DNA from: Candidatus Saganbacteria bacterium
GTDB taxonomy: Bacteria; Margulisbacteria; WOR-1; XYC2-FULL-46-14; WPAF01
Assembly: GCA_009772965.1 (NCBI GenBank)
Contig: WPAF01000002.1
Span: 54,199-118,198 of the forward strand
DNA: 64,000 nt
Reading direction: 5' to 3'
The translations under genes and the position numbers were made by a program. Within the stretch, counting starts at the first letter, position 1, and each line of letters begins with the position of its first letter. This document shows positions 8,604 through 49,084 of the stretch, piece after piece. The notes beneath the pieces were generated by a model. The model saw only the letters and a program-made list of their open reading frames with translations, did not search any database and was not told the origin of the DNA.

Positions 8604-9918
8604 TCCAAAAGGATTTATAAAATATAGCAGGAAAAAGACGGAATACAGGCCGTCTTGCGAAAGAATAAAAGATTATGATTTAGTATTTAAACACAGGGCT
8701 GAAGCCGATTCTAAGGAACAGGCATCCCGCTGTATGGACTGCGGAACGCCATTTTGCCACTGGGGCTGTCCGCTGGCGAATTACATACCCGAATGGAATG
8801 ATTATAATTCTTTCGGCTTTTGGAAAAAAGCTTATCAACTGCTCAGCCAAACAAATAACTTGCCTGAGATAACAGGAAGGGTTTGCCCCGCATTATGCGA
8901 ATTTGCCTGCGTGCTTGGCATTAATGATGATCCTGTGACAATAAGAGAAAACGAGCTTTCAATAATTGAATACGCGTTTAAAAAAGAATGGGTAAGGCCA
9001 AATCCCCCCAAAATCAGGACCGGAAAAAAAGTCGCGATTATTGGGTCTGGGCCGGCCGGGATTTCCTGCGCCGCACAGCTTAACCAAAAAGGGCATACAG
9101 CGGTAGTATTTGAAAAAGATAAAAAGATCGGCGGTCTCATGAGATATGGGATACCGGATTTTAAACTGGAAAAGAGCATTCTTGACCGCAGGATAGAAAT
9201 CTTAAAAGAAGAGGGGATAATTTTTAAGACAGGCATAAATGTTGATATTCAATCCGGAAAAATATTGGAAGAATATGACGCGGTATGCTATGCCGGAGGA
9301 TGCCGCACTCCGAGGGATTTGAAGGTGAAAGGCAGGGAATTGGACGGGATACACTTTGCCTTGGAATATCTTTCCCAAACAAATAAAATCATTTCTGGGG
9401 AACAAATAAAAAACGAAATTGAAGTCTGTGGAAAAAAGGTTGTTGTGATCGGGGGAGGGGATACCGGGTCTGATTGTGTTGGCACGGCTAATCGGCAGGG
9501 GGTGGCAAGCGTTGTCCAGCTGGAGCTTCTTCCCAAACCGCCGGAAAAAAGGCTTGAAAGCCAGCCTTGGCCTAAATATCCAAACTTGTTAAAAAATACA
9601 AGCAGCCATGAAGAAGGATGCGGCCGCAAATGGTCAGTTATGACAAAAGAATTTATTGGCAAAGGAACAAATATCTCAGGCCTTAGATGCGTTTTAGTTG
9701 ATTGTGATTTAAAAGAAATTCCGGGTTCGGAATTTGCAATTGAAGCAGATGTTGTACTTTTGGCGCTTGGATTTCTAAGTCCGGAAAAGATGGGATTTAC
9801 CAGCGAAAATGTTTTTGTTGCTGGAGACGCGCGCAGGGGACAGTCGCTTATCGTATGGGCGATACAGGAGGGCAGAAGCGCAGCTGCGGCTATTGATGCA
9901 TTTTTACTGCGAACATAA
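8596..9918 (+). CDS. gltD: Glutamate synthase small subunit (NAD(P)H-dependent oxidoreductase)
   Basis: Translation from the ATG at 8596 (MGNPKGFIKYSRKK...) has a Cys-rich Fe-S region and two Rossmann GXGXXG motifs (IIGSGPAG, VIGGGDTG). The start overlaps the gltB stop by 8 nt. Confidence 0.85.
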   Translation: MGNPKGFIKYSRKKTEYRPSCERIKDYDLVFKHRAEADSKEQASRCMDCGTPFCHWGCPLANYIPEWNDYNSFGFWKKAYQLLSQTNNLPEITGRVCPALCEFACVLGINDDPVTIRENELSIIEYAFKKEWVRPNPPKIRTGKKVAIIGSGPAGISCAAQLNQKGHTAVVFEKDKKIGGLMRYGIPDFKLEKSILDRRIEILKEEGIIFKTGINVDIQSGKILEEYDAVCYAGGCRTPRDLKVKGRELDGIHFALEYLSQTNKIISGEQIKNEIEVCGKKVVVIGGGDTGSDCVGTANRQGVASVVQLELLPKPPEKRLESQPWPKYPNLLKNTSSHEEGCGRKWSVMTKEFIGKGTNISGLRCVLVDCDLKEIPGSEFAIEADVVLLALGFLSPEKMGFTSENVFVAGDARRGQSLIVWAIQEGRSAAAAIDAFLLRT

Positions 9919-9957
9919 AGCTTTAAAAGTTGCAAATTTAATAATATAATAACCTCT

Positions 9958-11238
9958 ATGTTGTTCTTAACGCCAAAAATAGCAGCGCTTGCATTGTTTA
10001 TCGCCGCTTATGTCTTATTTGTTTTTTTTCCCGCACGAAGAACCCTTATCTCTGTTTCAGCGGTTATGCTGCTATTGCTTTTTAAAGCTATTTCTCCAAA
10101 CGACGCGCTGATGGCAATTAACTGGAATGTAATTGGGATATTCATTGGAACGCTCGCGGTGGCGGATATATTTATGGAAAGCCGCGCGCCTGCTTTTTTT
10201 GCCGAATTAATTGTGGACAGGGCAAAAAGCACCGCCTGGGCGATTTTATTTATTTGTTTATTGACCGGTTTTATATCCGCATTTGTTGAAAATGTCGCGA
10301 CTGTCCTTATTGTTGCCCCGATAGTTATAGCGCTTACCAAGAAACTTAAAATCAATCCAATCGGTCCCATGATAGCGGTTGCCATTTCCAGCAATTTACA
10401 GGGAACGGCTACTTTAATAGGAGATCCGCCCAGCATGCTACTTGGAGGTTTTGCTAAAATGAATTTTATGGATTTTTTCTTTTACCATGGCAAGCCCGGC
10501 ATCTTTTTCGCGGTTGAGCTTGGCGCGATTTTTTCCTTTTTTATACTTTACCTGATTTTTAAACACTACAAAGAAAAAAGCACTTTGTTGAAAGTAGAAA
10601 AAATAAAAGCGTATTTCCCGTCTTTTTGGCTGGTTCTTTTGATTTTTGTCCTTGCTCTTTCTTCTTTTTTTGATCCTGGATTTTCCTGCGTGGCAGGAAC
10701 AATCTGCTTATTTTTTGGGCTGGTGTCTTTAATTTATAAAATGTTTACTGAAAAAAAATCGCTGGGGTATGGTATTACGAATCTTGATTGGGATACTACG
10801 CTTTTCCTTATGGCGATTTTTATTTTAGTCGGAAGTTTGACTATTACTGGATGGATTGACACCTTTTCTATTTTCCTGGCTAATGTAATCGGCCAAAATA
10901 TTCTGGGCGGATATCTTTTAATTGTTATTACAGCCGTTGTCCTTTCATCTTTCATAGATAATGTCCCTTTTTTGGCGGCCATGCTGCCGGTTGCGCTCTC
11001 GGTATCGCAAAGAATAAATATTGATCCCCCCCTCTTGCTTTTTGGGCTTTTAATTGGCGCTAGTTTAGGCGGGAATATTACCCCAATTGGCGCGTCGGCC
11101 AATATTGTAGCTTGCGGGATATTAAAAAAAGAAGGATATCAGGTAAAATTCGGCGAATTTATAAAAATCGGCTTGCCGTTTACTTTGGTGGCAGTGACGG
11201 CTTCATGCCTTTTTGTTTGGCTAATTTGGCGTCCTTGA
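9958..11238 (+). CDS. Second ArsB/NhaD-superfamily anion permease
   Basis: 426 aa membrane protein carrying IGDPPSMLLGG and GGNITPIGASANIVA motifs. A paralogue of the 1310..2626 permease. Confidence 0.7.
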   Translation: MLFLTPKIAALALFIAAYVLFVFFPARRTLISVSAVMLLLLFKAISPNDALMAINWNVIGIFIGTLAVADIFMESRAPAFFAELIVDRAKSTAWAILFICLLTGFISAFVENVATVLIVAPIVIALTKKLKINPIGPMIAVAISSNLQGTATLIGDPPSMLLGGFAKMNFMDFFFYHGKPGIFFAVELGAIFSFFILYLIFKHYKEKSTLLKVEKIKAYFPSFWLVLLIFVLALSSFFDPGFSCVAGTICLFFGLVSLIYKMFTEKKSLGYGITNLDWDTTLFLMAIFILVGSLTITGWIDTFSIFLANVIGQNILGGYLLIVITAVVLSSFIDNVPFLAAMLPVALSVSQRINIDPPLLLFGLLIGASLGGNITPIGASANIVACGILKKEGYQVKFGEFIKIGLPFTLVAVTASCLFVWLIWRP

Positions 11239-14268: not shown

Positions 14269-14865
14269 ATGAAACCGATAGAAATACAAAACAAACTAAA
14301 AGAAAGCGGCTTGAAGATATTTTCCAGATTTGAGTTTCGACGGTTGGTTGGGGCGTCGCCTATCGCTGCGCAAAAACTATTGGAAAGATACACGCAAAAA
14401 GGAGTATTTGCCCGGCTAAAGGGGGGCATGTACGCTTTAGAAATAAGCTTCCCCTCCAGTTATTTGATAGCAAATAAACTATATAAACCATCCTATATAT
14501 CCTTTGAAACGGCTCTTTCTTATTATCGCGTAATTCCCGAAGTGGTTTATTCTTTTACTTCTGCCACAACAAAAACAACGCGCGAATACGGGGTCAAGAA
14601 CATGGTTTTTAATTATCACAAGATAATGAAAAAGGCCTTTACCGGCTATAAATTGATCAAGCTGGGCGGTGAGAATATCCTCTTGGCAGAAAAGGAAAAA
14701 GCCTTAGCGGATTATCTTTATTATGTGTTTTTACATAAAAAAAAGCTTAATGACCGGTTGAATCTAAAAGGGATTGATCGCAAGAAATTGCTTGTTTTTG
14801 TATCTTTATTTGGAAAACCAAGTTTTATAAGGTGGGTTGAACATGATATCAGAAAAACAAATTGA
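14269..14865 (+). CDS. AbiEi-like antitoxin/transcriptional regulator (type IV TA, abortive-infection AbiE family)
   Basis: 198 aa. The N-terminal ..LVGASPIAAQKLLERYTQKGVFARLKGGMYAL region resembles the AbiEi wHTH domain. It is followed, with overlap, by an AbiEii-type NTase gene. Confidence 0.7.
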   Translation: MKPIEIQNKLKESGLKIFSRFEFRRLVGASPIAAQKLLERYTQKGVFARLKGGMYALEISFPSSYLIANKLYKPSYISFETALSYYRVIPEVVYSFTSATTKTTREYGVKNMVFNYHKIMKKAFTGYKLIKLGGENILLAEKEKALADYLYYVFLHKKKLNDRLNLKGIDRKKLLVFVSLFGKPSFIRWVEHDIRKTN

Positions 14866-15556
14866 AGAAATAGCGGTAAAAATGCAAACCTCTGCCATTA
14901 ATGTTGCCCGAGAGTACGCGCAAAACTTGTTTCTCCAGTATTTTTACGCGCAGGAAGGTTCAGAAGCAATTTATTTTAAGGGCGGAACCGCGTTAAGGAT
15001 ACTTTATCGGAGCCCCCGTTTTTCCGAGGATTTGGATTTTTCAACCTCCCATATAGATAAAAGTATAATTGAAAAACTTCTCCAGGAAACAGCGATAAAA
15101 ATTGACGAAGAGGGGGTTTTGATAGAAATTGAGGAAGCAAAGCCCACTTCCGGAGGATATTTAGGCGAGATCAAAGTTTCGATCGGCGCGATTAATTTTA
15201 ATATTATGATGGAAATATCAAGCCGGAAGAAAAAAACTTCCGGAGAAACAGTTGTGGTTGAAAACCCTTATGTAAGCACCTACACGGTTTTATCGCTCAA
15301 AAAAGAAGAATTGATCGCGGAAAAAATCGAAGCGCTCCTTGACCGGAAAAAGCCCAGGGACTTTTTCGATCTGTATTTTATGCTGAGAGCAAACCTTATC
15401 CCCAATAAAAAGTTTTTAAAACTAGTTATTCCTTTGCTAGGAAAAACAAAAATCGACTTTAAAAATGAGTTGGGCGAATTTTTACCGAGAAGTTTCCATC
15501 CCATAATCAAAAAATTCCCTGTTGCCCTGGCTCAGGAAATCCGCCGGCATCTTTAA
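14837..15556 (+). CDS. AbiEii/AbiGii-family nucleotidyltransferase toxin (DUF1814-like)
   Basis: MNMISEKQIEEIAV...FLQYFYAQEGSEAIYFKGGTALRILYRSPRFSEDLDFS matches the AbiEii NTase signature (GGTAL...R.SEDLDF). The start overlaps abiEi by 29 nt. AAGGTGGG RBS. Confidence 0.75.
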   Translation: MNMISEKQIEEIAVKMQTSAINVAREYAQNLFLQYFYAQEGSEAIYFKGGTALRILYRSPRFSEDLDFSTSHIDKSIIEKLLQETAIKIDEEGVLIEIEEAKPTSGGYLGEIKVSIGAINFNIMMEISSRKKKTSGETVVVENPYVSTYTVLSLKKEELIAEKIEALLDRKKPRDFFDLYFMLRANLIPNKKFLKLVIPLLGKTKIDFKNELGEFLPRSFHPIIKKFPVALAQEIRRHL

Positions 15557-15564
15557 GCTGATTA

Positions 15565-15819
15565 TCAGCCATGCTTGAGCTTTAAAATTATCAAATAAGC
15601 GCAAAGCATAATAGTAAGCGAGTTGGCTATAATTATCGGGAGCGACTGCAGGATGACGCCATAAGCAATCCAAAGCATTAAACCAATCGACATAACCACG
15701 TACATCCCCAGCGAAAGATCTTTTGTATGCTTGCTGTTATGTGCCTTGATTACCTGGGGGAGAAAGGCGGAGGTGGTTAAAATGGCGGCGAGAATACCGA
15801 TAATTAATTTAATGTCCAT
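15565..15819 (-). CDS. SemiSWEET-type (PQ-loop/MtN3) small sugar transporter
   Basis: 84 aa, three TM helices, with an LPQV PQ-loop motif in TM1 (ILTTSAFLPQVIKA). The size and topology are typical of bacterial SemiSWEETs. Confidence 0.65.
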   Translation of the reverse strand: MDIKLIIGILAAILTTSAFLPQVIKAHNSKHTKDLSLGMYVVMSIGLMLWIAYGVILQSLPIIIANSLTIMLCAYLIILKLKHG

Positions 15820-15899
15820 CCCTATACTATAATTTAAACTGGGATTGGTGGCAAGCGCTCATTGCTTTTTTGCCGTATAAAGATTAGGATTATAACGCC

Positions 15900-17444
15900 A
15901 TGCAGAAATATACGGATGCCGAAGTTTTGATCGCCAATAAGCGGCTTGGCAAAACCGCACTGCATGATCCGGTAATTATTTCTCGCTTATTTAAGCGCAT
16001 TACCAATAAAACACTGAAAAATATCCGCCCGGACAAGCGTCTTGTAATTACCCGCCCTTTCCGTCCTGCCAGTGAAATCCACACCGGAAATATTGTCAAC
16101 CGCATCCTGGCGCTGGACGAAAACGGAGCCAAATCTGTGCTCAAGCAAACGCTTAAGGATTTCGCGCACCGCCATAAGGATATTCAATCCATCCTGATGA
16201 GGAATTACCAGAAAATTTCCGGATATATCAAGGATCCGGCGGCGTTATCAGATGAAAGAAAGCTTTTGCTTGGCGCCTGTTTTACGATGGAATATTCCAT
16301 CGAATCGGCTGCCCTTTTTAATCCTTCGATTGTCATTTATCCCAAGCAGAACAATTTGAAGAGGGGACAAACCCGCGTTATTTTTAGCTTCCGTGCGACG
16401 GGCGAAGGGCATATCTCCTCGATCGTTTTTCGCAGCGCCCTGATCGATAAAGATAATTCGATCTTTCTGGAGCCAGTAAGCCCATTTTTGGGCGCGCCCG
16501 AAATTGTTTTGAACGCGACTTACGACCGGGAACTTTTTAAAGCCAAACTGAAAGAGATGGGGCAGTTTAGCGAAGCGGCAAATGCGATTTACCAACTATT
16601 GCCTTCGAGCTTTACGCTGGAAGAAATGGGGCAGGCAATTACCTCCGTCCGCAACAAAAATATTTTTTCCGACATGGATGACTCCATTATCCACATCAAG
16701 TGGCTGGCGGAATCGAATTATGAGGTCTTTTTTCCGCACGGGCAGTTGATTTCGGAAAGGGTCATTTTCCCTCTCTCTCAAAACGAAAGCAACGGCGTGG
16801 AAGACGCGCGCTTCGTCCGTTTTGTTGATGACGATGACAACGTTACCTACTACGCGACCTATACCGCTTATAACGGCAGGGAAATACTTCCGCAATTGAT
16901 AGAAACAAAAGATTTCCACCATTTTAAAATCTCGACCCTCAACGGCCCCATGGCGCGCAATAAGGGAATGGCTCTTTTTCCGCGCAAAATCAACGGGCAG
17001 TATGCCATGATCACGCGGACTGACGGGGAAAATCTCTATTTAAGCTATTCCAATAATATTCATTTCTGGTTTGAAGGGGTTAAAATTGAAGCGCCGGAAA
17101 ATCCCTGGGAGCTGGTTCAGATCGGCAATTGCGGGTCGCCGCTCGAAACGAAAAAAGGCTGGATCCTGCTGACCCACGGCGTAGGGCCGATGCGCAAATA
17201 CTGCATTGGCGTCGTACTCTTAGACTTGAAAGACCCCTCGAAAATAATAGGGCGGCTCAAAGAGCCCCTGCTTATGCCGCGGGAAGAAGAGCGCGAGGGC
17301 TATGTGCCGAACGTGGTTTACAGCTGCGGTTCCATCATCCTCAACAATGAATTGATTATTCCTTACGCCATTTCCGACTCCGATTCGCATGTAGCCAGCA
17401 TCCCTGTTGACGAACTGCTCGAGAAGCTTTTAAGACAGGTCTAA
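15900..17444 (+). CDS. GH130-family glycoside phosphorylase/hydrolase with an approximately 230-aa N-terminal extension
   Basis: The C-terminal 280 aa (..NGVEDARFVRFVDDDDNVTYYATYTAYNG..ALFPRKINGQYAMI..) match the GH130 beta-propeller (beta-1,4-mannosyl phosphorylase-like). The N-terminal domain is not recognised. Confidence 0.7.
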   Translation: MQKYTDAEVLIANKRLGKTALHDPVIISRLFKRITNKTLKNIRPDKRLVITRPFRPASEIHTGNIVNRILALDENGAKSVLKQTLKDFAHRHKDIQSILMRNYQKISGYIKDPAALSDERKLLLGACFTMEYSIESAALFNPSIVIYPKQNNLKRGQTRVIFSFRATGEGHISSIVFRSALIDKDNSIFLEPVSPFLGAPEIVLNATYDRELFKAKLKEMGQFSEAANAIYQLLPSSFTLEEMGQAITSVRNKNIFSDMDDSIIHIKWLAESNYEVFFPHGQLISERVIFPLSQNESNGVEDARFVRFVDDDDNVTYYATYTAYNGREILPQLIETKDFHHFKISTLNGPMARNKGMALFPRKINGQYAMITRTDGENLYLSYSNNIHFWFEGVKIEAPENPWELVQIGNCGSPLETKKGWILLTHGVGPMRKYCIGVVLLDLKDPSKIIGRLKEPLLMPREEEREGYVPNVVYSCGSIILNNELIIPYAISDSDSHVASIPVDELLEKLLRQV

Positions 17445-17464
17445 TCCACACTCGCAATTTCATA

Positions 17465-17484
17465 CCTGCCTGCCGGCAGGCAGG
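17465..17484. terminator. GC-rich perfect 20-bp palindrome between convergent genes; first copy of a repeated motif
   Basis: CCTGCCTGCC|GGCAGGCAGG lies between the GH130 stop (17444) and the GT4 stop (17502). A near-identical core GCCTGCCGGCAGGC recurs at 48159-48172. Confidence 0.4.
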
Positions 17485-17501
17485 TTCTTCGATCATATCA
17501 A

Positions 17502-19739
17502 TCAAACAACACTTGATATCTCATACTCTTCAATCATAGCTAGCAATGCCATTAGGAAAGAGACGGTGCTTTCGCCCCCCTGGTTTAAACTGACACCTTC
17601 CGGCATCAACCCGTCAGCACAGCCTTTGGTCTCATGGTCGTACAAAGACATTCCCATATCGTTTTCGCCCAGAAACCAGCCGAATGCCTGCCGCATCTTT
17701 TTTAAATATTCTTTTTCTTTGGTAACCCGGTAAGCCGACTGATAAGCTAGAACCATGGCTGCGGCATCAATTGGCTGTTGGTCATACTTTGCTTTTATCC
17801 CGCCTCTTTTATACCAGCCGCGGGAGCCGACAATGGAAAGGCGGCCATTATGGGTAATTGTTTTTTCTAAAAACTCCAGCGTTTCCTTTGCGGCCTTCAA
17901 ATATTTTTCCTCGCGGAGAATTGAATAGGTTTGAAATAATGCCATAGGCATAATCCCGTTATCGTAACAGATGATATCTTCAAACCAGCGCCAGTTATCA
18001 TCGGAAACATTTTTATATAAATCCAATAAATAATCGGCGCATTCGCGAAGCTTTGCCGCAACGCTCTCATCTCCCTGGTAGCAGCGCAGATAGGAGACCA
18101 AACCTAACATGGCCAGGGATTTTCCGCGCAGGTTTAATTCGCGCACGTGGGGCAACGCCTTCTGAAAACATTCATAAGCCAAAGAACGATAGGCGTTGCG
18201 CGGAGGCCGCCAGATGATGTAGCCAAGCGCCCAGAGCGCCCTGCCGCACGCGTCATCCGAACCGCTCTCATCCAGGAAGTGGCGCTGGTAATCGATAAAA
18301 TTGCGGAAGCGGCCGTCGGGATTTTGCATAAAATGGGTAAAGCTGAAATAAGTAGAGATTAGCTCTTTGGCGTCCTCGCCGCGTAAAAGGAAAAATGCCC
18401 AGGCGCACATCATCAGGGCGCGGGAGTTGTCATCAAGGCAATAACCGGTATGCCGGTCGGGGACAATATATTTCGCGTGTTGGATCAGTCCCGTATCATC
18501 GGTCAAACGTTTTAAGTGTGCCAGGTCAAAGGGTGGTTCGCGCAACAGCAGGGCGGGGGTTTTTAAAGTTAAGGATCTTTTAGCCGCGGTGGCCGCTGTT
18601 TTTTTAAATATTTCAAGATACTTTTCCGAAACTTTTTCCCAGCGCATCTGCCGCCCAAATTTATAGGTTTTATCGCGCAGAGACTTTAGCTTTGTTTTGT
18701 CCGACAACAGGTCGCGCAAGGAAGAAGCCAAGGCATTGCTGTCCCCAAAGTTTATTAATCGTCCCCTTCCTTCGGCGAGTATCTCTTTGGCATACCAGTA
18801 AGGCGTAGAGATTATGGCGTTCCCCGCCCCAATTGCATAGGACAGGGTTCCGCTGACTATCTGCGCCTCATTCAAATAGGGGGTGATATAAATATCCGCC
18901 GCCATAAGCCAGGCATAGAGCTCTTCCAAGCTGACAAATCGGTTGTCAAATATTACCTGTTCCTGTAATCCTAATTCCTCGACCAGCGCTACCAGGCTGG
19001 TCCGGTATTTTTCGCCGTACTCCCTAAGGACATTGGGGTGGGTTTTCCCAAGAACAACATAGATCAACTGGGGAAATTCCTGGACTATTTTTGGAAGGGC
19101 CTTTATGACTGTCTCTATACCTTTGTTTGGGCTGAGCAAGCCAAAAGTCAACAGTGTTTGTTTCCCTTCCACCTGGAAACGTTTTTTGTAGCGGTTGTTA
19201 TCAAGCGAGGTAAAATCGGGAGTGCCGTGATAAAGCATCCTGATCTTCTCGGCCGGTACGGAGTAAACCTCCTTCAATAAAGTGACAGCCAGATTGCTCA
19301 TCACTATGAGATAGCTGGCTCGTTGAGCCATCTCCTGGATGATCTTTTTTTGGTTGGGGGTGGGGTTTTTGAGCACTGTGTGCAGAACCACTACCGCCGG
19401 TACGCTGAGGCTTGAGATCAGGGAGAGGATGTAAATACCATCCCAGCCGCCGTAGATTCCGTATTCGTGCTGGATGCAAACCACATCGGCATTACTGGCA
19501 TTGATAAAGTTGGCCGCTTCAAAATAATCTTTCTGTTGCGTTTGCTGTATGATGAATTCAACTCTGCGCGGATAAGCGTACCTTCCATCAGTGTCGTTGA
19601 CGGCGATTGCAAACACGCTGGAGCGGGGCGAAAGTAATTTAGCGGCCGCCTCGCAAAGATCGGTTGTAAAAGTAGCGATTCCGCAAAGGCGAGGAGAATA
19701 ATTTCCGACAAAAACGATATTGAGCTCTGGTTTCAACAT
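17502..19739 (-). CDS. GT4-family glycosyltransferase fused to a C-terminal (alpha/alpha)6-barrel glycosidase-like domain
   Basis: 745 aa. The N-terminal 400 aa have the GT-B/GT4 fold (MLKPELNIVFVG...; EX7E-like region ..FGLLSPNKGIE..). The C-terminal roughly 340 aa are rich in the W/Y/D motifs of six-hairpin glycosidases. Confidence 0.65.
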   Translation of the reverse strand: MLKPELNIVFVGNYSPRLCGIATFTTDLCEAAAKLLSPRSSVFAIAVNDTDGRYAYPRRVEFIIQQTQQKDYFEAANFINASNADVVCIQHEYGIYGGWDGIYILSLISSLSVPAVVVLHTVLKNPTPNQKKIIQEMAQRASYLIVMSNLAVTLLKEVYSVPAEKIRMLYHGTPDFTSLDNNRYKKRFQVEGKQTLLTFGLLSPNKGIETVIKALPKIVQEFPQLIYVVLGKTHPNVLREYGEKYRTSLVALVEELGLQEQVIFDNRFVSLEELYAWLMAADIYITPYLNEAQIVSGTLSYAIGAGNAIISTPYWYAKEILAEGRGRLINFGDSNALASSLRDLLSDKTKLKSLRDKTYKFGRQMRWEKVSEKYLEIFKKTAATAAKRSLTLKTPALLLREPPFDLAHLKRLTDDTGLIQHAKYIVPDRHTGYCLDDNSRALMMCAWAFFLLRGEDAKELISTYFSFTHFMQNPDGRFRNFIDYQRHFLDESGSDDACGRALWALGYIIWRPPRNAYRSLAYECFQKALPHVRELNLRGKSLAMLGLVSYLRCYQGDESVAAKLRECADYLLDLYKNVSDDNWRWFEDIICYDNGIMPMALFQTYSILREEKYLKAAKETLEFLEKTITHNGRLSIVGSRGWYKRGGIKAKYDQQPIDAAAMVLAYQSAYRVTKEKEYLKKMRQAFGWFLGENDMGMSLYDHETKGCADGLMPEGVSLNQGGESTVSFLMALLAMIEEYEISSVV

Positions 19740-19810
19740 AGACTTTAACTCTAACCGATATCATACAGAGTTGCAACCTGATTGTTCCCGGGATCAACTT
19801 CAAGGATAAA

Positions 19811-19861
19811 TAGCCCAATCTTCTGAGAATCGAACCCCGATTTGTACCTTGAGAGGCTCGC
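19811..19861 (-). repeat. Decayed copy of the 3' half of tRNA-Glu (putative att remnant)
   Basis: The reverse complement GCGAGCCTCTCAAGGTACAAATCGGGGTTCGATTCTCAG...TTGGGCTAT aligns with the anticodon arm, T-arm and 3' end of the tRNA at 21471-21541. Both are followed by GGGCTAT(A/T)(A/T)AT. Confidence 0.5.
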
Positions 19862-19981
19862 ACTTAGCCGCCCCTCCGTTTCTCAACATAATGCGACCCT
19901 AAGATTACCTTTAACTTTACAAACCAAACCAAAGTAGTATAATTTCATCGGTGGATATTTAAGGATGGGGGGATAGCACAA

Positions 19982-20428
19982 ATGGCAAATTTATCACGAG
20001 CGAATTTATCCCGAGGCAAATCGAGGGAGTCGAGTGAAGCAAAAATAGATCAAGTACTTGAAAAGATAAGCGTTATAGAAAAGGATATTTCTTCATTAAA
20101 AAATGGTCAGCAATCGTTAGAAAAAGGCCAGAATACATTAGCGCAAGATGTTGTTTCATTAAAACAAGGCCAGCAGAAGCTTGAGGACGGCCAGACAAAG
20201 CACTATGATTTAATCCAAAAACAGGGCATCCTGTTGGAGCAGGTTGCGTCAGACGTCAAAGCAGTTGCGGAAGGGCATGCGGTAATAAGGAGTGAAATGC
20301 AAAGAGGATTTGAAGAAGTTAAAGAACAAATAAAATTCGTTGATGATAAAGTAACGTTTGTAGCCGACAAAGTAAATAAAATTGACCAAAAATTGGATGA
20401 GCATATCAGACTTCCAGCGCATGTGTAA
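19982..20428 (+). CDS. Coiled-coil protein with internal Q/K-rich repeats (unknown)
   Basis: 148 aa. N-terminal tandem ANLSR-ANLSR. Repeated SLKNGQQSLEKGQ/SLKQGQQKLEDGQ heptad-like units. No recognisable domain. Confidence 0.4.
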   Translation: MANLSRANLSRGKSRESSEAKIDQVLEKISVIEKDISSLKNGQQSLEKGQNTLAQDVVSLKQGQQKLEDGQTKHYDLIQKQGILLEQVASDVKAVAEGHAVIRSEMQRGFEEVKEQIKFVDDKVTFVADKVNKIDQKLDEHIRLPAHV

Positions 20429-20532
20429 TAAATGTTTTCCCTGCCGTAGCAACTCAAGATTTTTAGAGCATAGCCCCACGGGGAGCTAACCCTAAAGAAA
20501 CCACCCTAATTATACTGCATTATCCAAAGAGG

Positions 20533-21252
20533 TTAAAGGTGGGGGAAAGACCCGGGAGCACTATTTAGTTTGAGTTGAACCTTCTTGAAGCCTAAATAAC
20601 AAGGCGCCGTAAGAATAAAATCAAATAAACAATTTAATAATGCTATTGTGAATAACGCATAATAATTGGGCTCTACAAATATATCAACCTTGAAAAAATA
20701 CAAAACATAAACAATAATCAACCAGAAAAGGTTATTAATCCCCCAGCATATATGTTGGTCATATTTATCCTTTTTCCACCACCACTGCCTCGCTAAAATA
20801 AGGAGTAACCAAAACACATTTATTGCTAACAGCCCAAAGAACCATTGATAAAAGAGGTCATATCTAAATTCCCATATTGAATGGCACATTCTATAGTAGA
20901 TAAATGAATGTAAAAATAGCAGTGGAACATCAATAACAAAAATACCAATCTGGGCAAGCCATCTATATTGAGTCTGCCAAGCAATATTTGAGAGATTGCG
21001 CGCTGGGGCAAAGAAAAATCTGATTAATACTAACCCGGCGATTACTGAAGGCAATGCGTGTTTCAATTCAAATATGAAATTGCTTGCAACCAATGCAATT
21101 CCCCAAGCCATCAAAACCGCATAAAGCACATCCATAATGTTTATAAATTTTGCAAACTGAACCTCTTTTGCTTTTTTGTTTTGGCTTTCAGCAAAATATT
21201 GTTCTTTTATATAATTTATAGAATTAGTCAGGATGGATAATGCTTTTTTCAT
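20533..21252 (-). CDS. Polytopic membrane protein, unknown function (W/F/Y-rich)
   Basis: 239 aa ORF with about 6 hydrophobic helices and no recognisable motif. Located inside the tRNA-bounded islet. Confidence 0.4.
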   Translation of the reverse strand: MKKALSILTNSINYIKEQYFAESQNKKAKEVQFAKFINIMDVLYAVLMAWGIALVASNFIFELKHALPSVIAGLVLIRFFFAPARNLSNIAWQTQYRWLAQIGIFVIDVPLLFLHSFIYYRMCHSIWEFRYDLFYQWFFGLLAINVFWLLLILARQWWWKKDKYDQHICWGINNLFWLIIVYVLYFFKVDIFVEPNYYALFTIALLNCLFDFILTAPCYLGFKKVQLKLNSAPGSFPHL

Positions 21253-21470
21253 AGCACCCTAATTATACTCTTGTGAAAAACATGGTCAATAGTATGACTT
21301 CTTATTGCTAAGATCGAGTTTGGCGTGGAAGCGAAAGCATTGCATGTCTCACCGATAGAGACACCTTTAAGGAATTGCTTGAAATATATCTGGAAAATGT
21401 CCCGGATGAAAACCCAATAAAGAAAAAGATTATGCAAGAAGTGACGAAATACCAACAATAGCAAAATTTA

Positions 21471-21541
21471 TAGCCCTAACGGGGATTGAACCCGTATCTC
21501 GACCTTGAGAGGGTCGCGTCCTAGCCATTAGACTATAGGGC
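21471..21541 (-). tRNA. tRNA-Glu (anticodon CUC)
   Basis: The minus-strand sequence GGCCCTA-TA-GTCT-AATGGCTA-GGAC-G-CGACC-CTCTCAA-GGTCG-AGAT-ACGGG-TTCAATC-CCCGT-TAGGGCT-A folds into a cloverleaf with a 7-bp acceptor (one G.U pair), D-arm, anticodon loop C-U-CUC-A-A and TPsiC loop. CCA is not encoded. Confidence 0.7.
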
Positions 21542-21550
21542 CGCGCGGAA

Positions 21551-21886
21551 TTATCTCAGCTGTTCCTGCTTGAACATTTGCTCGCGGAGGAAGATGCTTT
21601 TTACTGTTGATTCAAGAGCGTAAGAGACTACAAATAATACTATCAGGCCAATCAGTATCCACCAGCCAAGATTGTGATGCTTAATCCATTTAATTGACAC
21701 GTAAATGGTCATTACTACCATCGCCGCGGTAAGGGTGATTCCAAAAAGCATCAATAGAGTAGTTATTAGCATGGGGAAAATTGGCTTAAAAAATATTACC
21801 AGGAGATAACAGGTGTTTGCCCAAACCAAAAGCAAAAGCAACAGATTAAAAACCGTAAAATGTTCTTCTTCAATATCAAAATTCAC
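21551..21886 (-). CDS. Small membrane protein at the 3' end of the V-ATPase operon
   Basis: 111 aa with 3 TM helices. The start overlaps the stop of the subunit D gene (21886). Confidence 0.4.
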   Translation of the reverse strand: MNFDIEEEHFTVFNLLLLLLVWANTCYLLVIFFKPIFPMLITTLLMLFGITLTAAMVVMTIYVSIKWIKHHNLGWWILIGLIVLFVVSYALESTVKSIFLREQMFKQEQLR

Positions 21887-22488
21887 TATTTTCCTCCCTT
21901 TCTTTTTAATATAGAAACATGGCTGCTTCTTTCAAGTTCATCCAGCTTCATTGTAACAAATTTTAAATTATCCTCAAGCTCAGGAATTAATATATATTCC
22001 AAGGCGTTTACCCGCCGCCTGGTTTCAATTATTTGTTTCGCGATAAAATTTAATGACCTTCCCGCTTCCGCAAGCTTAATAAGGGAGGGAAGGGCATTGT
22101 TAAAAGCATTTAATGCTTCGGGCAAATCTTCTGAAGCTAATATTTTAGAAAATTTTAACGGTTCGCCTGAAACCCTTAATTCATACGACGGAATTTCAAC
22201 CCCCATGATGCTTTGGGTTTTTATGTTTATCCGGGCGCTGGCCGTGGATTTATTTTTAAAAACTACAGGGTTTGATAAAGCATACGCAAAAACAGATTTA
22301 GTAAAAATATCTACCAATTCCGGCTCAAGCTTTTTATGGAGGCCAAAATAGCTGTTTTTGATGCTGTAAAACCTTTGCACCAGGCCGTCAAGCTTATCTT
22401 TTAAAAGCTTATGCCCCCTGCGGGCAAGCGCGGTTTGCTTCCTCAGGCGCAGAAGCTGCATCCGAGTGGGACTAATCCGCTTTTGCAT
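21886..22488 (-). CDS. atpD: V/A-type ATP synthase subunit D
   Basis: [36 protein letters not shown] is the canonical subunit D N-terminus. 200 aa. Confidence 0.85.
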
Positions 22489-29622: not shown

Positions 29623-30891
29623 CTATTTAAACAAATCATCAAGCTCACACGAAAGTAACGCTGATTTGTTTAAAACTATCTGTTCTTTTTGGTTTAAATT
29701 ATCCGCCGTCATTCTAATCACTTTCGTGGAAATGCTGTTGCCAAGCATAACACGGTTTGTTTTCTTAAGATATGCCTCGACTTTATCGTAAAAAAGCGTC
29801 ACGTACTGTTTTAATTTATCGCTTAATTGGCCTTTTATATCGCTGATAACCAGCTGAACTACTTTGTCGTTTATTTTTGTTGGCAAATCTCCTTCCCGAT
29901 CAGTAATCCAATAATCGCTTATAATGCATCGAATTCGGGTGGATCTTTCTTCTTCGGTATTATAAGTATATATGAGAAAATAATTGTCGGTATCAAAATC
30001 CTGGTGTACCTCCATGCTTTCCAATTTTGTTGCCGTATTGATTTTATAATCTTCAAGAAGCCGTAAATAGCTTTCCCTCCAGTTTTTCAGCCAGTTTTCA
30101 ATAAAAATCTGGTTCACGAAAAGCGGCGTTAAGTCATGCTTGAGGTTCACATTATTTACTTTATTCATTTGCAAGGTAAGCTTGTCAAAAAGCGCCCGCA
30201 AATCTTTCACATCTATCTTTTTGGCGACGAGATAGTCAAGATCTGGAACAACCTTTTTTGTCATATACCAAAGGAGGTCGTAAATATCGCGGCCTTTTTC
30301 TTCATATACGGCGTCACCCACGCCACGCTGTCCACGCAGAAAAATAGCGGCGATTTTGCTAGCCATAAGCGCCGACATATTGTAGGTTGTAATAACAAAC
30401 GAGAGTTGGTCGCGGTTTATCGGCCTTCGCTCAACCACGGTCTTTGGCGCCGTGAAGTGATGCAGATCAATTTTAACATGCACTTGTTTTGAAGGATGCC
30501 CGAGGCCCAATTCATCGCCGATATGAAAGCGCAGAAGAAGCCCTCGGACGCCGGTTGTTTTTACCGTCAAAAAATCTGCCTCCGTGCCGTAGGTATTTGA
30601 GAAATGTTTCTCAATGGCTTCTTTTATTTCTCTGAGAAAGGGTGTAGTTATCTCGCTTTTAATTTCAAAATCCAAATCAACCGACATGCGATCAAGCCCA
30701 TGGCAAATGCGGAGCGCCGAGCCGCCGTACATTATCCAATCACTATATTGGGGATGGTGATAAATAAAATTGAGAACATAGTATTGCAAATCTTCTTTCA
30801 AGGCATTGCGTTTTATCTCCACATCCAATGTTTTATGGGTGGCGAGATCATCAATTTTTATTTTAAGTGCCGCGAGAATTTGGTTACTCAT
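29623..30891 (-). CDS. Large AbiEii/DUF1814-family nucleotidyltransferase (toxin-like)
   Basis: 422 aa. The N-terminal ..YVLNFIYHHPQYSDWIMYGGSALRICHGLDRMSVDLDF matches the AbiEii NTase core motif. The start overlaps the upstream AbiEi-like gene. Confidence 0.65.
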   Translation of the reverse strand: MSNQILAALKIKIDDLATHKTLDVEIKRNALKEDLQYYVLNFIYHHPQYSDWIMYGGSALRICHGLDRMSVDLDFEIKSEITTPFLREIKEAIEKHFSNTYGTEADFLTVKTTGVRGLLLRFHIGDELGLGHPSKQVHVKIDLHHFTAPKTVVERRPINRDQLSFVITTYNMSALMASKIAAIFLRGQRGVGDAVYEEKGRDIYDLLWYMTKKVVPDLDYLVAKKIDVKDLRALFDKLTLQMNKVNNVNLKHDLTPLFVNQIFIENWLKNWRESYLRLLEDYKINTATKLESMEVHQDFDTDNYFLIYTYNTEEERSTRIRCIISDYWITDREGDLPTKINDKVVQLVISDIKGQLSDKLKQYVTLFYDKVEAYLKKTNRVMLGNSISTKVIRMTADNLNQKEQIVLNKSALLSCELDDLFK

Positions 30892-31504
30892 GGCGTATAT
30901 ATTTTTTTATCATAGCGTACAATTTTTCTCGTTCTTGTTTGTCCATTTCATCAATATCTATGCGCAACTCAGGGATCAAGGCATCTATCGCTTCCTGCTT
31001 TACCCCGCGAAATTGGCGCGTTTTGAAATATAAAAGGTCAAAAAGTGCTTTTGAGGGCGAAGCGAGAAAAAAGTCAAATCTTCCTTTCACCAAAGAAAAG
31101 CCGGAAAAAAGTTCTTTTTTTATGGAATGATATTCAAAAATTCCCGCCTTAGTGGAATAGGTTTTTGTGATTTTAGGGGTGACTGAGGTAACGGCATGAA
31201 TTATTTCGGTGGCTAAATTATAATACTGCAAAGCCGCCCAAGAGCTTATATACGATGGCATGCGTAAAACATTGGCAAGATAAAACGAATAAGAGATGTC
31301 GCTTTTGTTTTTGTGGTAAAAATCCGCGGAAATGTATAACCCATTCTTGAGATGAATAATTTCTTTGTGCGCTAAAGAACGGTTGATGTAGGAATCAACG
31401 GTGGTGCTTTTAATCTCGTACTGCTTGCATATTTGGGAAATAGTCTCCTTATTGAAATATGGTAGGGCCTTTAGTTGTTCAAGTAATATTTCTCGATATT
31501 TCAT
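30884..31504 (-). CDS. AbiEi-like antitoxin/regulator partner
   Basis: 206 aa. The region ..ANVLRMPSYISSWAALQYYNL.. resembles the AbiEi family. It is operonic with, and overlaps by 8 nt, the NTase gene. Confidence 0.55.
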   Translation of the reverse strand: MKYREILLEQLKALPYFNKETISQICKQYEIKSTTVDSYINRSLAHKEIIHLKNGLYISADFYHKNKSDISYSFYLANVLRMPSYISSWAALQYYNLATEIIHAVTSVTPKITKTYSTKAGIFEYHSIKKELFSGFSLVKGRFDFFLASPSKALFDLLYFKTRQFRGVKQEAIDALIPELRIDIDEMDKQEREKLYAMIKKYIRHE

Positions 31505-48183: not shown

Positions 48184-48825
48184 TTAGATGGAGGAGGTTT
48201 CCAGAAGATAGCCTTTTACTCTTTTTTCAAAATCTTTTTTAATAACAGGGAGGGCAACTTTATTTCCTTTGGTAAATAATATCTCAGTGTAGTTTATATC
48301 GTCGAAACTGACTAAAGCTTTCAGATAAACGGCGGCATCAAAGCTTGTGTACTTCTTTTTGCAGTTTTCTATTATTTCTTTTAGGGAAGTTTTCTTGAAA
48401 ATATAATAGAGATCTACATAATCTTTAAATTCTGCCCGGAGCAAAGCGCAAATTTTCATGCAGGCAATGTCCATTGGATCTGCAATATTAAAAACCCCAA
48501 AATCCAGACATGGCCTTAAAAGGTTTTCTTTGATACAAAAAAAAGAAACTTTTATTTCATCAGCAACAACTAGATTTAATGTTTTATTACTAGCCTGTAT
48601 GACTTCTATTGAATAACCATTGAAAATTTCCCTAATTTCCCTTAAAAGATCTTCGGGGTTAAAAACCTTGTTTGTAAAAAAGTCAAAATCGATAGAATCC
48701 CGATGTCCTAATTGTAATGCCAACCCTGTTCCTGCTGCAAGATAGAAGCGGTCTTTGAAATCCTTGAACAAAGGAAGGATCTCTTTTCTTTTTTTATCCA
48801 AGATTTCAAGGTGTTTTTCTGTCAT
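48184..48825 (-). CDS. Third AbiEii-like nucleotidyltransferase (short)
   Basis: From the ATG at 48825: MTEKHLEILDKKRKEILPLFKDFKDRFYLAAGTGLALQLGHRDSIDFDFF matches the AbiEii/DUF1814 core. About 213 aa. Confidence 0.6.
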   Translation of the reverse strand: MTEKHLEILDKKRKEILPLFKDFKDRFYLAAGTGLALQLGHRDSIDFDFFTNKVFNPEDLLREIREIFNGYSIEVIQASNKTLNLVVADEIKVSFFCIKENLLRPCLDFGVFNIADPMDIACMKICALLRAEFKDYVDLYYIFKKTSLKEIIENCKKKYTSFDAAVYLKALVSFDDINYTEILFTKGNKVALPVIKKDFEKRVKGYLLETSSI

Positions 48826-49084
48826 GTTTAATACCAAAAAATATCCGCCAGAGGTTATTGCTGCGTTTATCAAGCTGCTTGCCGCCAAAAGACAAAACGT
48901 AGTTTTTTATTGAGGATTTATCCGAATTTTTAAAAAGCCAATGGATTGCAGGTATGCTGCCGTAGCTTAAAATCCGGCTAAAAATAAGCTTATAATTTTG
49001 GGAAAAAGAAAGTTTATCCAGATTTACATCCCAGAAATATTTTTTAAATTCTTTAGGAAGCTTTTTTTCTCTTTTTAATGACAT
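48806..49084 (-). CDS. Small basic protein, putative cognate partner of the NTase (unknown family)
   Basis: 92 aa ORF directly upstream of, and overlapping by 20 nt, the AbiEii-like gene. No recognisable motif. Confidence 0.3.
   Translation of the reverse strand: MSLKREKKLPKEFKKYFWDVNLDKLSFSQNYKLIFSRILSYGSIPAIHWLFKNSDKSSIKNYVLSFGGKQLDKRSNNLWRIFFGIKHDRKTP

What the first reader, a model, noticed from the sequence alone, without database searches (positions are those of the whole stretch)
19811..21541. tRNA-Glu(CUC) plus a decayed direct repeat of its 3' half 1.65 kb away: remnant of a site-specific integration
The 3' half of the tRNA (anticodon stem to acceptor end) is partially duplicated at 19811-19861 in the same orientation (38 of about 50 positions match, including an exact CCTCTCAAGGT 11-mer). 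The duplication lies on the side of the tRNA 3' end, which is the geometry of attL/attR after integrase-mediated insertion into a tRNA gene. The bracketed 1.6 kb holds only a repetitive coiled-coil protein, a membrane protein of unknown function and a tiny ORF, with no integrase. This suggests an eroded island or a satellite-like element.
Basis: seen in the sequence. Interest (0 to 1): 0.55.

Follow-up and report, generated by a model that had tools for sequence, protein, structure and literature searches.

The report
tRNA-Glu-anchored array of small gene cassettes
Next to a glutamate tRNA gene of an uncultured Saganbacteria genome lie two tiny gene cassettes, each ending in a worn copy of the tRNA's tail; these are scars of repeated DNA insertion at the tRNA gene, and related bacteria carry much longer arrays of the same kind with no insertion enzyme in sight.

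Summary
tRNA-Glu(CUC) is real (21471-21542, minus strand). A decayed same-strand copy of its D-loop-to-3'-end part lies at 19811-19869 (36/51 matches, P about 1e-4 window-wide).

It is an exact TCCCCGTGGGGCTA, the 3'-end motif of relatives' tRNA-Glu. So the bracket holds two cassettes, not one element: a 6-TM membrane protein gene and a coiled-coil protein gene.

No integrase was found in the ORFs tested here or in relatives. No close relative exists, so no empty site could be found.

More distant relatives (V-ATPase D about 55% identical) also have tRNA-Glu(CUC) near the V-ATPase operon. There it is followed by 5-9 same-strand, intergenic repeats of its 3' end, which bound cassettes of 1-4 small genes. 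Two strains 99.7% identical in the flank differ by whole cassettes and in the tRNA's 3' half. Two 76%-identical homologues of the membrane gene sit directly behind such repeats in other contexts.

Best reading: scars of successive site-specific integrations at the tRNA gene, with the recombinase acting in trans or lost. This resembles cis-mobilizable elements or tycheposon-built islands, with an integron-like layout. It is a new variant of a known kind and of moderate interest.

The parts
21471..21542 (-). tRNA-Glu(CUC), the intact anchor of the array (attL-like boundary). No CCA is encoded.
   Evidence: ARAGORN. Rfam tRNA 67.3 bits. Relatives also carry tRNA-Glu(CUC) within 3-5 kb of V-ATPase D.
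21253..21470 (-). Spacer plus promoter and leader of the membrane-protein gene. About 100 nt next to the tRNA have no homologue. The next roughly 120 nt (about 21253-21372) are homologous to the upstream regions in L083 and L087 (TTGACC ... AGTATAAT, about 10 nt before the ATG).
   Evidence: Alignments.
20533..21252 (-). Cassette 1 cargo: a 239-aa protein with about 6 predicted TM segments and no known family.
   Evidence: ORF list. No Pfam, PHROG, PADLOC or NCBIfam hit. Only 8 homologue clusters among 5.8 billion proteins. Hydropathy.
20471..20493 (-). Site B: a short direct repeat of a tRNA-Glu T-arm and acceptor 3' end (GGGTTAGCTCCCCGTGGGGCTA). It marks the boundary between cassette 1 and cassette 2.
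   Evidence: Exact TCCCCGTGGGGCTA is the only hit in the window at up to 2 mismatches, expected 0.21. It is intergenic, between the stop codons at 20533 and 20428.
19982..20428 (+). Cassette 2 cargo: a 148-aa coiled-coil protein with an internal 63-nt tandem repeat. The family is restricted to Saganbacteria.
   Evidence: Only generic coiled-coil hits. 18 homologues, found in other contexts in other Saganbacteria. Internal repeat D1.
19811..19869 (-). Site C: a long decayed direct copy of the tRNA from the D-loop to the discriminator base.
   Evidence: (D2). It is equally similar (43/64) to the window's tRNA and to relatives' tRNA-Glu(CUC). It is not a tRNA by Rfam.
20502..20516 (-). Exact 15-nt direct repeat of the -10 and leader segment of the membrane-protein gene (second copy at 21255-21269). 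It lies 8 nt before site B. Unexplained; possibly a recombination relic.
   Evidence: the repeat finder family D4, 100% identity.
17502..19739 (-). Presumed original downstream flank: a GT4 glycosyltransferase fused to a glycosidase-like domain (745 aa). A promoter-like sequence lies in the 71 nt after site C.
   Evidence: Pfam. No further tRNA-like repeats lie to its left.
21551..22488 (-). Upstream flank: a 111-aa membrane ORF and V-ATPase subunit D, at the end of the V-ATPase operon.
   Evidence: Pfam ATP-synt_D, E=5e-44. Gene calls on the identical contig L001.

Best explanation
The interval is a short accretion array anchored on tRNA-Glu(CUC). The intact tRNA gene is followed by two integrase-less cassettes. 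Each cassette is closed on its far side by a decayed direct copy of the tRNA's 3' part.
- Cassette 1: membrane-protein gene, closed by site B at 20471-20493.
- Cassette 2: coiled-coil gene, closed by site C at 19811-19869.

The repeats are scars of at least two successive site-specific integrations into the 3' part of the tRNA gene. Each incoming circular DNA carried its own tRNA-3'-like segment, which restored the tRNA. The previous 3' end was pushed outward.
- The older event crossed over near the D-loop or anticodon arm. This gave the long site C, which keeps the exact CCTCTCAAGGT.
- The later event crossed over in the T-loop. This gave the short site B.

The recombinase is not encoded in the array. 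It acts in trans from elsewhere in the genome or from a transient helper element, or it has been lost.

Shown: the three repeats, their strand, order and intergenic positions; the same architecture and strain-level cassette turnover in relatives.
Inferred: that integration was recombinase-mediated, the order of events, and that the enzyme acts in trans.
For: 1. The tRNA is real and is the only one in the window.

2. Sites B and C are both on the tRNA's strand, on its 3' side and intergenic. Site C scores 20 against a null maximum of 13.0 +/- 1.0, P about 1e-4. Site B matches exactly a 14-nt motif defined independently from relatives, with 0.21 hits expected at up to 2 mismatches.

3. Relatives L092 and L093 (V-ATPase D about 55% identical) also have tRNA-Glu(CUC) downstream of the V-ATPase operon. 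It is followed by 7-8 hits of TCCCCNTGGGGCTA (tRNA included) on the tRNA's strand, all downstream of the tRNA. The null is about 0.7 per 20.6 kb. Against the L093 gene calls the repeats lie between genes. They bound cassettes of 0.06-2.7 kb holding 1-4 small ORFs, such as HEPN+MNT, DsrE-methyltransferase-SHOCT-ArsR, and LMWPc.

4. L092 and L093 are 99.7% identical over the 13.5 kb up to the tRNA but differ by whole cassettes. A 2.7-kb L092-specific cassette is flanked by hybrid repeat junctions, and the shared flank resumes right after the repeat.

5. In those two strains the tRNA's 5' 41 nt are identical. Its 3' 31 nt differ at about 8 positions, including compensatory T-stem changes. This is as expected if incoming elements donate the 3' half.

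6. The two closest homologues of the membrane gene (76% aa, about 80% nt identity) each sit 8-9 nt behind a tRNA-Glu 3'-end repeat in different contexts. L083 follows tRNA-Glu(UUC) plus a 205-nt module. L087 follows a divergent queE-like gene.

7. No integrase appeared in any ORF set tested. These were the ORFs around the locus and ten more window ORFs tested one by one, 30 ORFs of relatives tested one by one, the precomputed Pfam calls for L092/L093, and summary scans of the remaining window ORFs and of 130 ORFs near motifs.

8. Partial tRNAs as scars of tandem integrations, and att-flanked elements without an integrase, are established concepts: the tycheposon preprint and the CIME definition in PMC6323972.
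Against: - No empty site or polymorphism is available for this organism. All three assemblies are 100% identical, and the nearest relative is far.
- No recombinase has been identified anywhere, so recombinase-mediated integration is inferred from geometry only.
- Site C is only about 70% identical to the tRNA and is equally similar to other tRNA-Glu(CUC) genes. Its history cannot be reconstructed.
- GC content of the bracket (0.33-0.41) resembles the V-ATPase D side, so it is not clearly foreign.
- Homologues of the coiled-coil gene in other Saganbacteria are not next to tRNA pieces.
- The window lacks the hairpin module that accompanies some repeats in relatives.
Confidence: 0.6

Rival explanations
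1. A single eroded island. One larger integrase-bearing element integrated once at tRNA-Glu, giving attL at the tRNA and attR at 19811-19869. It then lost its integrase and most of its genes by deletion. Site B would be incidental or an internal secondary site.
For: The attL/attR geometry fits and the bracket holds no integrase. Degraded elements with fragmented integrases are known in tRNA islands.
Against: Site B is an exact 14-nt match to the relatives' repeat motif, on the right strand and exactly between the two genes. Relatives show many cassettes of the same small size bounded by the same repeats and no integrase fragments. The membrane gene alone recurs behind a repeat in two other contexts.
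Confidence: 0.13
2. A dedicated gene-capture system that works like an integron. The tRNA-Glu 3' end serves as the primary site (like attI). Circular cassettes carry a structured recombination module (like attC). A trans-encoded recombinase inserts and excises them. The window's array would be a decayed, module-less example.
For: Relatives have arrays of up to 9 co-oriented repeats. Nearly all ORFs in them point the same way, and they include toxin-antitoxin cassettes. A conserved hairpin-rich module ends in the repeat at some cassette ends and directly after tRNA-Glu in more than 20 metagenomic loci. That module shows covariation: 9 pairs with double changes against 4.1 +/- 1.2 in shuffles, 0 of 500 shuffles as high. 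The L092 insertion has hybrid module junctions.
Against: No recombinase was found next to the tRNA or in the arrays. Most repeats in the arrays lack the module. The window has no module at all. In many loci the tRNA plus module sits alone among housekeeping genes and seems vertically inherited. The module could equally be an RNA gene.
Confidence: 0.15
3. Non-integrative origin. The copies arose by local duplication or rearrangement of the tRNA gene region, or by homologous recombination with incoming DNA that used the tRNA end as a short anchor. No site-specific recombinase was involved.
For: No recombinase was found (same calls as above). The repeats are short and decayed, and an unexplained exact 15-nt repeat lies in the bracket.
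Against: The copies are strictly 3'-part fragments in direct orientation on the 3' side. They recur as sharp cassette boundaries in several lineages. Swapping of the tRNA 3' half between near-identical strains is the hallmark of att-site recombination. Relatives have a single tRNA-Glu(CUC), not tandem genes.
Confidence: 0.1
4. Chance similarity: the copies are not related to the tRNA.
For: Site C is only about 70% identical and carries an indel.
Against: P is about 1e-4 for site C window-wide. Site B is an independent exact motif match. Both lie on the same strand, within 1.7 kb, and are intergenic.
Confidence: 0.02

Closest known systems
Tandem accretion at tRNA genes and cis-mobilizable elements (CIMEs) of the ICE/IME world
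   Same: The segments are flanked by attL/attR-type direct repeats at the 3' end of a tRNA gene and carry no integration or transfer genes. Several such units are stacked at one site. The CIME definition is in PMC6323972.
   Different: The units here are far smaller (0.66-1.0 kb, one gene each). The att copies are decayed. No related ICE or IME with an integrase is known for this lineage. Cis-mobilization is untested.
Tycheposon-built genomic islands of Prochlorococcus (bioRxiv 10.1101/2020.12.28.424599)
   Same: The islands sit next to tRNA genes. Partial tRNA copies separate successive insertions and remain as scars of older events, and cargo is left behind. Saganbacteria belong to the wider cyanobacterial neighbourhood (my own knowledge).
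   Different: Tycheposons carry tyrosine or serine recombinases and replication modules. None was found here or in the relatives' arrays. The cassettes are much smaller and their ORFs are almost uniformly oriented.
Integrons (sedentary chromosomal integrons; CALIN clusters of attC sites without an integrase)
   Same: In relatives: arrays of many 1-4-gene cassettes, co-oriented ORFs, toxin-antitoxin cassettes, and a structured site conserved in shape more than in sequence at some cassette ends. The array starts at one fixed site, and strains differ by whole cassettes.
   Different: There is no IntI. The shared repeat is 14-27 nt of tRNA sequence, not a 7-nt GTTRRRY core. The inferred crossover must lie 3' of the integron G/TT position, or the T-loop would be destroyed. 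Most repeats lack the structured module, and the window has none.
Classical integrase-bearing genomic islands and prophages in tRNA genes (P4-like and related tyrosine integrases; sublocations in the anticodon loop or T-loop, from my own knowledge of Williams 2002)
   Same: The identity blocks start in the T-loop (site B and the relatives' motif) or the anticodon region (site C; the L092/L093 3'-half swap) and run past the tRNA 3' end. In several loci they extend 5-12 nt beyond it.
   Different: No integrase gene is adjacent to the tRNA or anywhere in the arrays.

Membership tests
Integrase-mediated tRNA-gene integrative element (genomic island or prophage type) | Intact tRNA gene at one boundary | tested here: met
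   tRNA-Glu(CUC) at 21471-21542.
Integrase-mediated tRNA-gene integrative element (genomic island or prophage type) | Direct repeat of the tRNA 3' segment at the other boundary, on the 3' side and the same strand | tested here: met
   Site C at 19811-19869 and site B at 20471-20493.
Integrase-mediated tRNA-gene integrative element (genomic island or prophage type) | Integrase (tyrosine or serine recombinase) gene inside the element | tested here: not met
   No recombinase domain in the two cargo proteins or in neighbours within about 12 kb. None in ten further window ORFs tested one by one. A summary scan of 37 other window ORFs listed only 25 of 51 families, none of them an integrase, so the rest of the window is not fully excluded.
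Integrase-mediated tRNA-gene integrative element (genomic island or prophage type) | Presence/absence polymorphism against an empty site in related genomes | tested here: inconclusive
   No close relative exists (D subunit at most 60% identical). All three assemblies are identical. In the more distant species, L092 and L093 do show cassette-level polymorphism at the same tRNA.
Cis-mobilizable element (CIME) | Flanked by attL and attR, with no integration or transfer genes | tested here: met
   Repeats flank each cassette and no such genes are present. The att copies are decayed, so 'intact' att sites are doubtful.
Cis-mobilizable element (CIME) | Mobilized in cis by a related integrase-bearing element that uses the same att site | not testable with these tools
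   No related ICE, IME or phage with an integrase was found in any locus.
Integron | intI integrase gene next to the primary site attI | tested here: not met
   Upstream of the tRNA is the V-ATPase operon here. In L092/L093 it is polysaccharide and sugar-metabolism genes.
Integron | Each cassette ends in an attC site (imperfect palindrome with R''/R' boxes) | tested here: not met
   The covariance model of the relatives' structured module finds nothing in the window. Most repeats in the relatives' arrays also lack it. The module resembles attC only loosely.
Tycheposon | Element-encoded recombinase plus replication module, inserted at a tRNA island site | tested here: not met
   Only a TM protein and a coiled-coil protein are present.
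Phage satellite (PICI or P4-like) | Integrase, replication/primase and helper-interference or packaging genes; found in viral particles | tested here: not met
   No such domains. No relatives in viral contigs.

The most novel reading that the evidence does not exclude
Saganbacteria, Margulisbacteria and co-occurring sediment lineages may have an integron-like gene-capture system. In it a tRNA-Glu gene plays the role of attI. Small circular cassettes of 1-4 genes carry a structured 110-215-nt module that ends in a tRNA-Glu 3'-end mimic and plays the role of attC. A recombinase encoded elsewhere inserts and excises them. The window's two cassettes would be a decayed array of this system.
Probability: 0.18. 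Interest if true: 0.8.

Novelty: new variant of a known kind. Interest (0 to 1): 0.45.

Why it matters
Insertion of mobile DNA at tRNA genes is textbook biology. What stands out here, and far more clearly in the relatives, is the form it takes: arrays of very small, integrase-less, mostly co-oriented cassettes bounded by copies of the tRNA tail.

Whole cassettes turn over between near-identical strains. The tRNA's own 3' half is swapped. A conserved structured module is tied to the repeat.

If a trans-acting recombinase services these arrays, this would be a second, independently evolved route to integron-like gene capture, in a poorly known phylum related to Cyanobacteria. It would also explain how small-genome uncultured bacteria shuffle accessory genes without carrying obvious mobile elements.

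If instead the arrays are only scars of lost elements, the locus is an ordinary eroded island. It is still useful as a marker of a conserved hot spot.

Tried and rejected
- Empty site or intact element in related genomes. The GTDB genome scan with V-ATPase D gave at best 44-45% identity. The 5.8-billion-protein search gave nothing between 100% and 60%. The question is not answerable for this species.
- A hidden second tRNA or other known RNA at the copy. Rfam found none, either at gathering scores or at E up to 10.
- More repeats to the left of 19811, which would place the GT745/GH130/AbiE block inside the array. None were found.
- An integrase in the window, in the relatives' arrays or near 37 metagenomic motif loci. 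None was seen in any ORF set tested. One search listed only 25 of 51 families, so an integrase far from the tRNA in the window is not fully excluded.
- A phage or satellite origin. There were only weak coiled-coil PHROG hits, no informative PADLOC or NCBIfam hit, and no viral contig with the motif, the module hairpin or the membrane protein.
- The membrane gene as a conserved native neighbour of tRNA-Glu. I rejected this as the simplest reading. Its three occurrences follow different tRNA-Glu isoacceptors or no tRNA at all, and have different upstream and downstream genes. More distant homologues are not tRNA-linked.
- Homologues of the coiled-coil gene as evidence for cassette mobility. They lie in other contexts without tRNA pieces, so this is uninformative.
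- Whether the copy is closer to relatives' tRNAs than to the window's own tRNA, which would mark it as the displaced original. It is a tie at 43/64 each.
- Reading the module as an integron attC. I rejected membership because the crossover position and the repeat length do not fit.
Full report
**1. Observation**

ARAGORN finds one tRNA in the 64-kb window: tRNA-Glu(CUC) at 21471-21542 on the minus strand. Rfam's tRNA model scores it at 67.3 bits.

The best non-self match of this tRNA anywhere in the window, on either strand, is at about 19829-19869 on the same strand. Its local score is 20, against 11 for the next best match.

The longest exact word is CCTCTCAAGGT.

In 200 shuffles of the window, the maximum score on both strands was 13.0 +/- 1.0 and never exceeded 17. 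This gives a Gumbel P of about 1e-4 (an earlier 40-shuffle run is). The copy is not a tRNA by Rfam.

**2.

A motif search built from relatives' tRNA-Glu 3' ends found a third site on the same strand at 20471-20493, GGGTTAGCTCCCCGTGGGGCTA.
- Its last 14 nt, TCCCCGTGGGGCTA, are the only hit in the window at up to 2 mismatches, with 0.21 expected.
- It lies in the 104-nt gap between the stop codons of the two convergent genes.
- All three sites end in GGGCTAT and are spaced 1000 and 660 nt apart.

The bracket is therefore two units.
- Cassette 1 (21470-20471) holds a 239-aa protein with about 6 TM segments.
- Cassette 2 (20470-19811) holds a 148-aa coiled-coil protein on the other strand.

The 'tiny ORF' is not a called gene on the identical public contig.

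Neither protein matches an informative family in Pfam, PHROGs, PADLOC or NCBIfam. No integrase domain occurs in the ORFs within about 12 kb on either side or in ten further window ORFs tested one by one. A summary scan of the remaining ORFs listed none among the 25 families shown.

**3. Organism and relatives**

The membrane protein is annotated in NCBI as a hypothetical protein of a Candidatus Saganbacteria MAG. The same locus, 100% identical, is on an ENA contig and a Logan contig.

No close relative is sampled.
- The best V-ATPase D match among GTDB species genomes is 44-45% identical.
- In the 5.8-billion-protein collection nothing lies between 100% and 60%.

**4. The same tRNA in more distant relatives**

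In species whose V-ATPase D is 55-57% identical (subunit A 71-72%, subunit B 79-84%), tRNA-Glu(CUC) again lies 3-5 kb downstream of the V-ATPase operon. The tRNA's position in the window is therefore native.

In two contigs of one such species (L092, L093), the tRNA is followed by direct repeats of its own 3' end.
- There are 7 and 8 hits (tRNA included) of TCCCCNTGGGGCTA at up to 2 mismatches. All are on the tRNA's strand and downstream of it, against a null of about 0.7 per 20.6 kb (looser scans).
- Set against the L093 gene calls, the repeats lie between genes.
- They bound cassettes of 0.06-2.7 kb with 1-4 small ORFs, almost all pointing toward the tRNA.
- The cargo includes HEPN plus nucleotidyltransferase, DsrE-methyltransferase-SHOCT-ArsR, a low-molecular-weight phosphatase, and many unknowns.

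A JGI contig with the same array runs past its end into unknown genes and ychF, with no integrase.

**5. Evidence that the repeats are recombination sites**

L092 and L093 are 99.7% identical over the 13.5 kb up to and including the 5' part of the tRNA. They share the first cassettes at 99% identity and then differ.

L092 has a 2.7-kb, three-ORF cassette that L093 lacks.
- Its left junction is the resident repeat.
- Its right junction is its own repeat, followed by the flank shared with L093 (CCAAACTTGATAATT).

This is the pattern expected from insertion of a circular unit at a resident site.

The tRNA itself differs between the two strains only in its 3' part. There are 0 differences in the first 41 nt and about 8 in the last 31 nt, with compensating T-stem changes. 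This is expected if incoming DNA supplies a new tRNA 3' half by crossing over near the anticodon arm. The window's long site C shows the same geometry.

Several contigs of this species break at the tRNA or just after it. That fits strain heterogeneity or repeats at this point.

**6. The membrane gene travels with such repeats**

The membrane protein has only 8 homologue clusters. The two closest are 76% identical in protein and about 80% in nucleotides. Each lies 8-9 nt behind a tRNA-Glu 3'-end repeat, where homology with the window's promoter region begins.
- In L083 the repeat is an exact 17-nt copy of the end of a tRNA-Glu(UUC) gene 205 nt upstream.
- In L087 it follows a divergent queE-like gene start (my reading of the sequence, not scanned against a family library).

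The upstream and downstream genes differ in all three cases. More distant homologues (42-45% identical) are not tRNA-linked.

A poorly conserved type of protein at 76% identity, when V-ATPase D of every sampled relative is at most 60% identical, hints at horizontal spread. The organisms behind L083 and L087 are unknown, so this remains a hint.

Homologues of the coiled-coil gene occur in other Saganbacteria, in other contexts and without tRNA pieces.

**7. A conserved structured module (not present in the window)**

In L083, L092 and L093 the first 170-215 nt after the tRNA form a hairpin-rich module that ends in the first repeat.

A JGI metagenome scan with GTGAGAWTCCCNNTGGGGCTA returned 37 loci. 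In about 20 of them a tRNA-Glu (CUC or UUC) lies 110-225 nt upstream on the same strand. Often the neighbours are housekeeping genes. In several loci the direct repeat extends 5-12 nt beyond the tRNA end.

RNAalifold on seven modules predicts a closing stem plus 4-5 hairpins.
- The 5' strand of the closing stem is often GGGAATCGAAC, the complement of the T-loop.
- 95% of cells are paired.
- 9 pairs show changes on both sides, against 4.1 +/- 1.2 in shuffles (0 of 500 as high) and at most 1 in the slid controls.

A covariance model finds at least 30 instances in the fetched loci, including copies at cassette ends inside the arrays. It finds none in the window. Rfam has no family for it.

Whether the module is an RNA gene or a DNA recombination site is open.

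**8. Explanation**

The best-supported reading is that the window holds a short accretion array at tRNA-Glu(CUC).

Successive site-specific integrations into the 3' part of the tRNA gene each restored the tRNA and displaced the previous 3' end outward. This left site C (the older event, with crossover near the D-loop or anticodon arm) and site B (the later event, with crossover in the T-loop).

The recombinase is not encoded in the array, so it acts in trans or has been lost.

Rivals and my confidence in each:
- A dedicated integron-like capture system: 0.15.
- A non-integrative duplication or homologous-recombination origin: 0.10.
- Chance: 0.02.

**9. Comparison with known systems**

Partial tRNAs as scars of tandem integrations, and degraded remnants in tRNA-adjacent islands, are described for Prochlorococcus tycheposons. 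Att-flanked elements that have lost their integration genes are defined as CIMEs (PMC6323972).

The locus works like these but fails the membership tests that require an element-encoded recombinase.

It resembles integrons in layout, in the relatives. It fails the defining features of an adjacent IntI and an attC at every cassette.

No paper in the searched library links Saganbacteria, tRNA and integrases.

**10. Verdict**

The window's own feature is a modest, decayed example of a known phenomenon. The lineage-wide architecture it points to is an unusual variant that deserves follow-up: integrase-less mini-cassette arrays on tRNA-Glu, swapping of the tRNA 3' half, and a covarying module.

Interest is 0.45. 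The most novel reading, an integron-like system that uses a tRNA gene as its primary site, has a probability of about 0.18.

Noticed in passing
L093 13556-13730 and 15117-15331; L092 13524-13687 and 17648-17806; L083 9674-9854; L113, L114, L119, L136 and about 25 other loci: A conserved hairpin-rich module of 110-215 nt lies directly downstream of tRNA-Glu (CUC or UUC) in many metagenomic contigs and ends in a copy of the tRNA's 3' end. Its base pairs covary (9 pairs with double changes, 0 of 500 shuffles as high) and it matches no Rfam family. It is absent from the window. It could be an RNA gene or a recombination site.
   Followed up: partly
L088 13637-13710; L090/L091 11442-11516; L010 14084-14155; L015 14364-14437; L020 1727-1802: tRNA-Glu(CUC) lies within a few kb downstream of the V-ATPase D gene in Margulisbacteria-like relatives, and also in Spirochaetia and a Christensenella MAG (5 of 27 loci scanned). 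This is far more often than chance for a single-copy tRNA, which suggests an old linkage.
   Followed up: no
L092 and L093, 13442-13516: Two strains 99.7% identical in the flank carry tRNA-Glu(CUC) genes with an identical 5' 41 nt. Their 3' halves differ at about 8 of 31 positions, with compensating T-stem changes. The tRNA 3' half appears to have been replaced by recombination.
   Followed up: partly
window 20502-20516 and 21255-21269: An exact 15-nt direct repeat, CACCCTAATTATACT (AGTATAATTAGGGTG on the minus strand). One copy is the -10 and leader of the membrane-protein gene. The other lies just after that gene's stop, 8 nt before site B. Unexplained.
   Followed up: no
window 20084-20195: The 148-aa coiled-coil gene contains two 49-nt copies (71% identical) spaced 63 nt apart, corresponding to a 21-residue repeat (...SLKxGQQxLExGQ...).
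   Followed up: no
window 14269-15556, 29623-31504 and 48184-48888: There are three AbiEii-type toxin genes in 64 kb. The first has a weak, below-cutoff AbiEi antitoxin match in the gene upstream (35.7 bits against a cutoff of 150). This is a high density of type IV toxin-antitoxin modules for a small genome.
   Followed up: partly
window 15800-19800: The GH130 and GT4-fusion genes just beyond site C have GC of 0.44-0.55, against 0.33-0.41 in the cassettes and the end of the V-ATPase operon. This may be a separately acquired block, but no tRNA-like repeat bounds it.
   Followed up: no
L141 about 9905-9940 and 10800-10835 (same in L142 and L143): In another Saganbacteria lineage, the homologue of the coiled-coil gene and an 85-aa ORF are bracketed by a direct repeat of about 35 nt (ccTYttaaacttgccaaactttttgctSgcc). 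This may be a different kind of cassette boundary.
   Followed up: no
L094-L098 contig ends; L139/L140 contig ends: Five contigs of the L092/L093 species end at or within about 200 nt after the tRNA-Glu gene. Two contigs with the closest coiled-coil homologue end in a (CT)n run about 90 nt after the gene. Assembly breaks cluster at these variable spots.
   Followed up: no
window 21471-21542 and the relatives' tRNA-Glu genes: All these tRNA-Glu genes have a G1-U72 wobble at the top of the acceptor stem (GGCCCYA / TRGGGCT). Most lack an encoded CCA.
   Followed up: no
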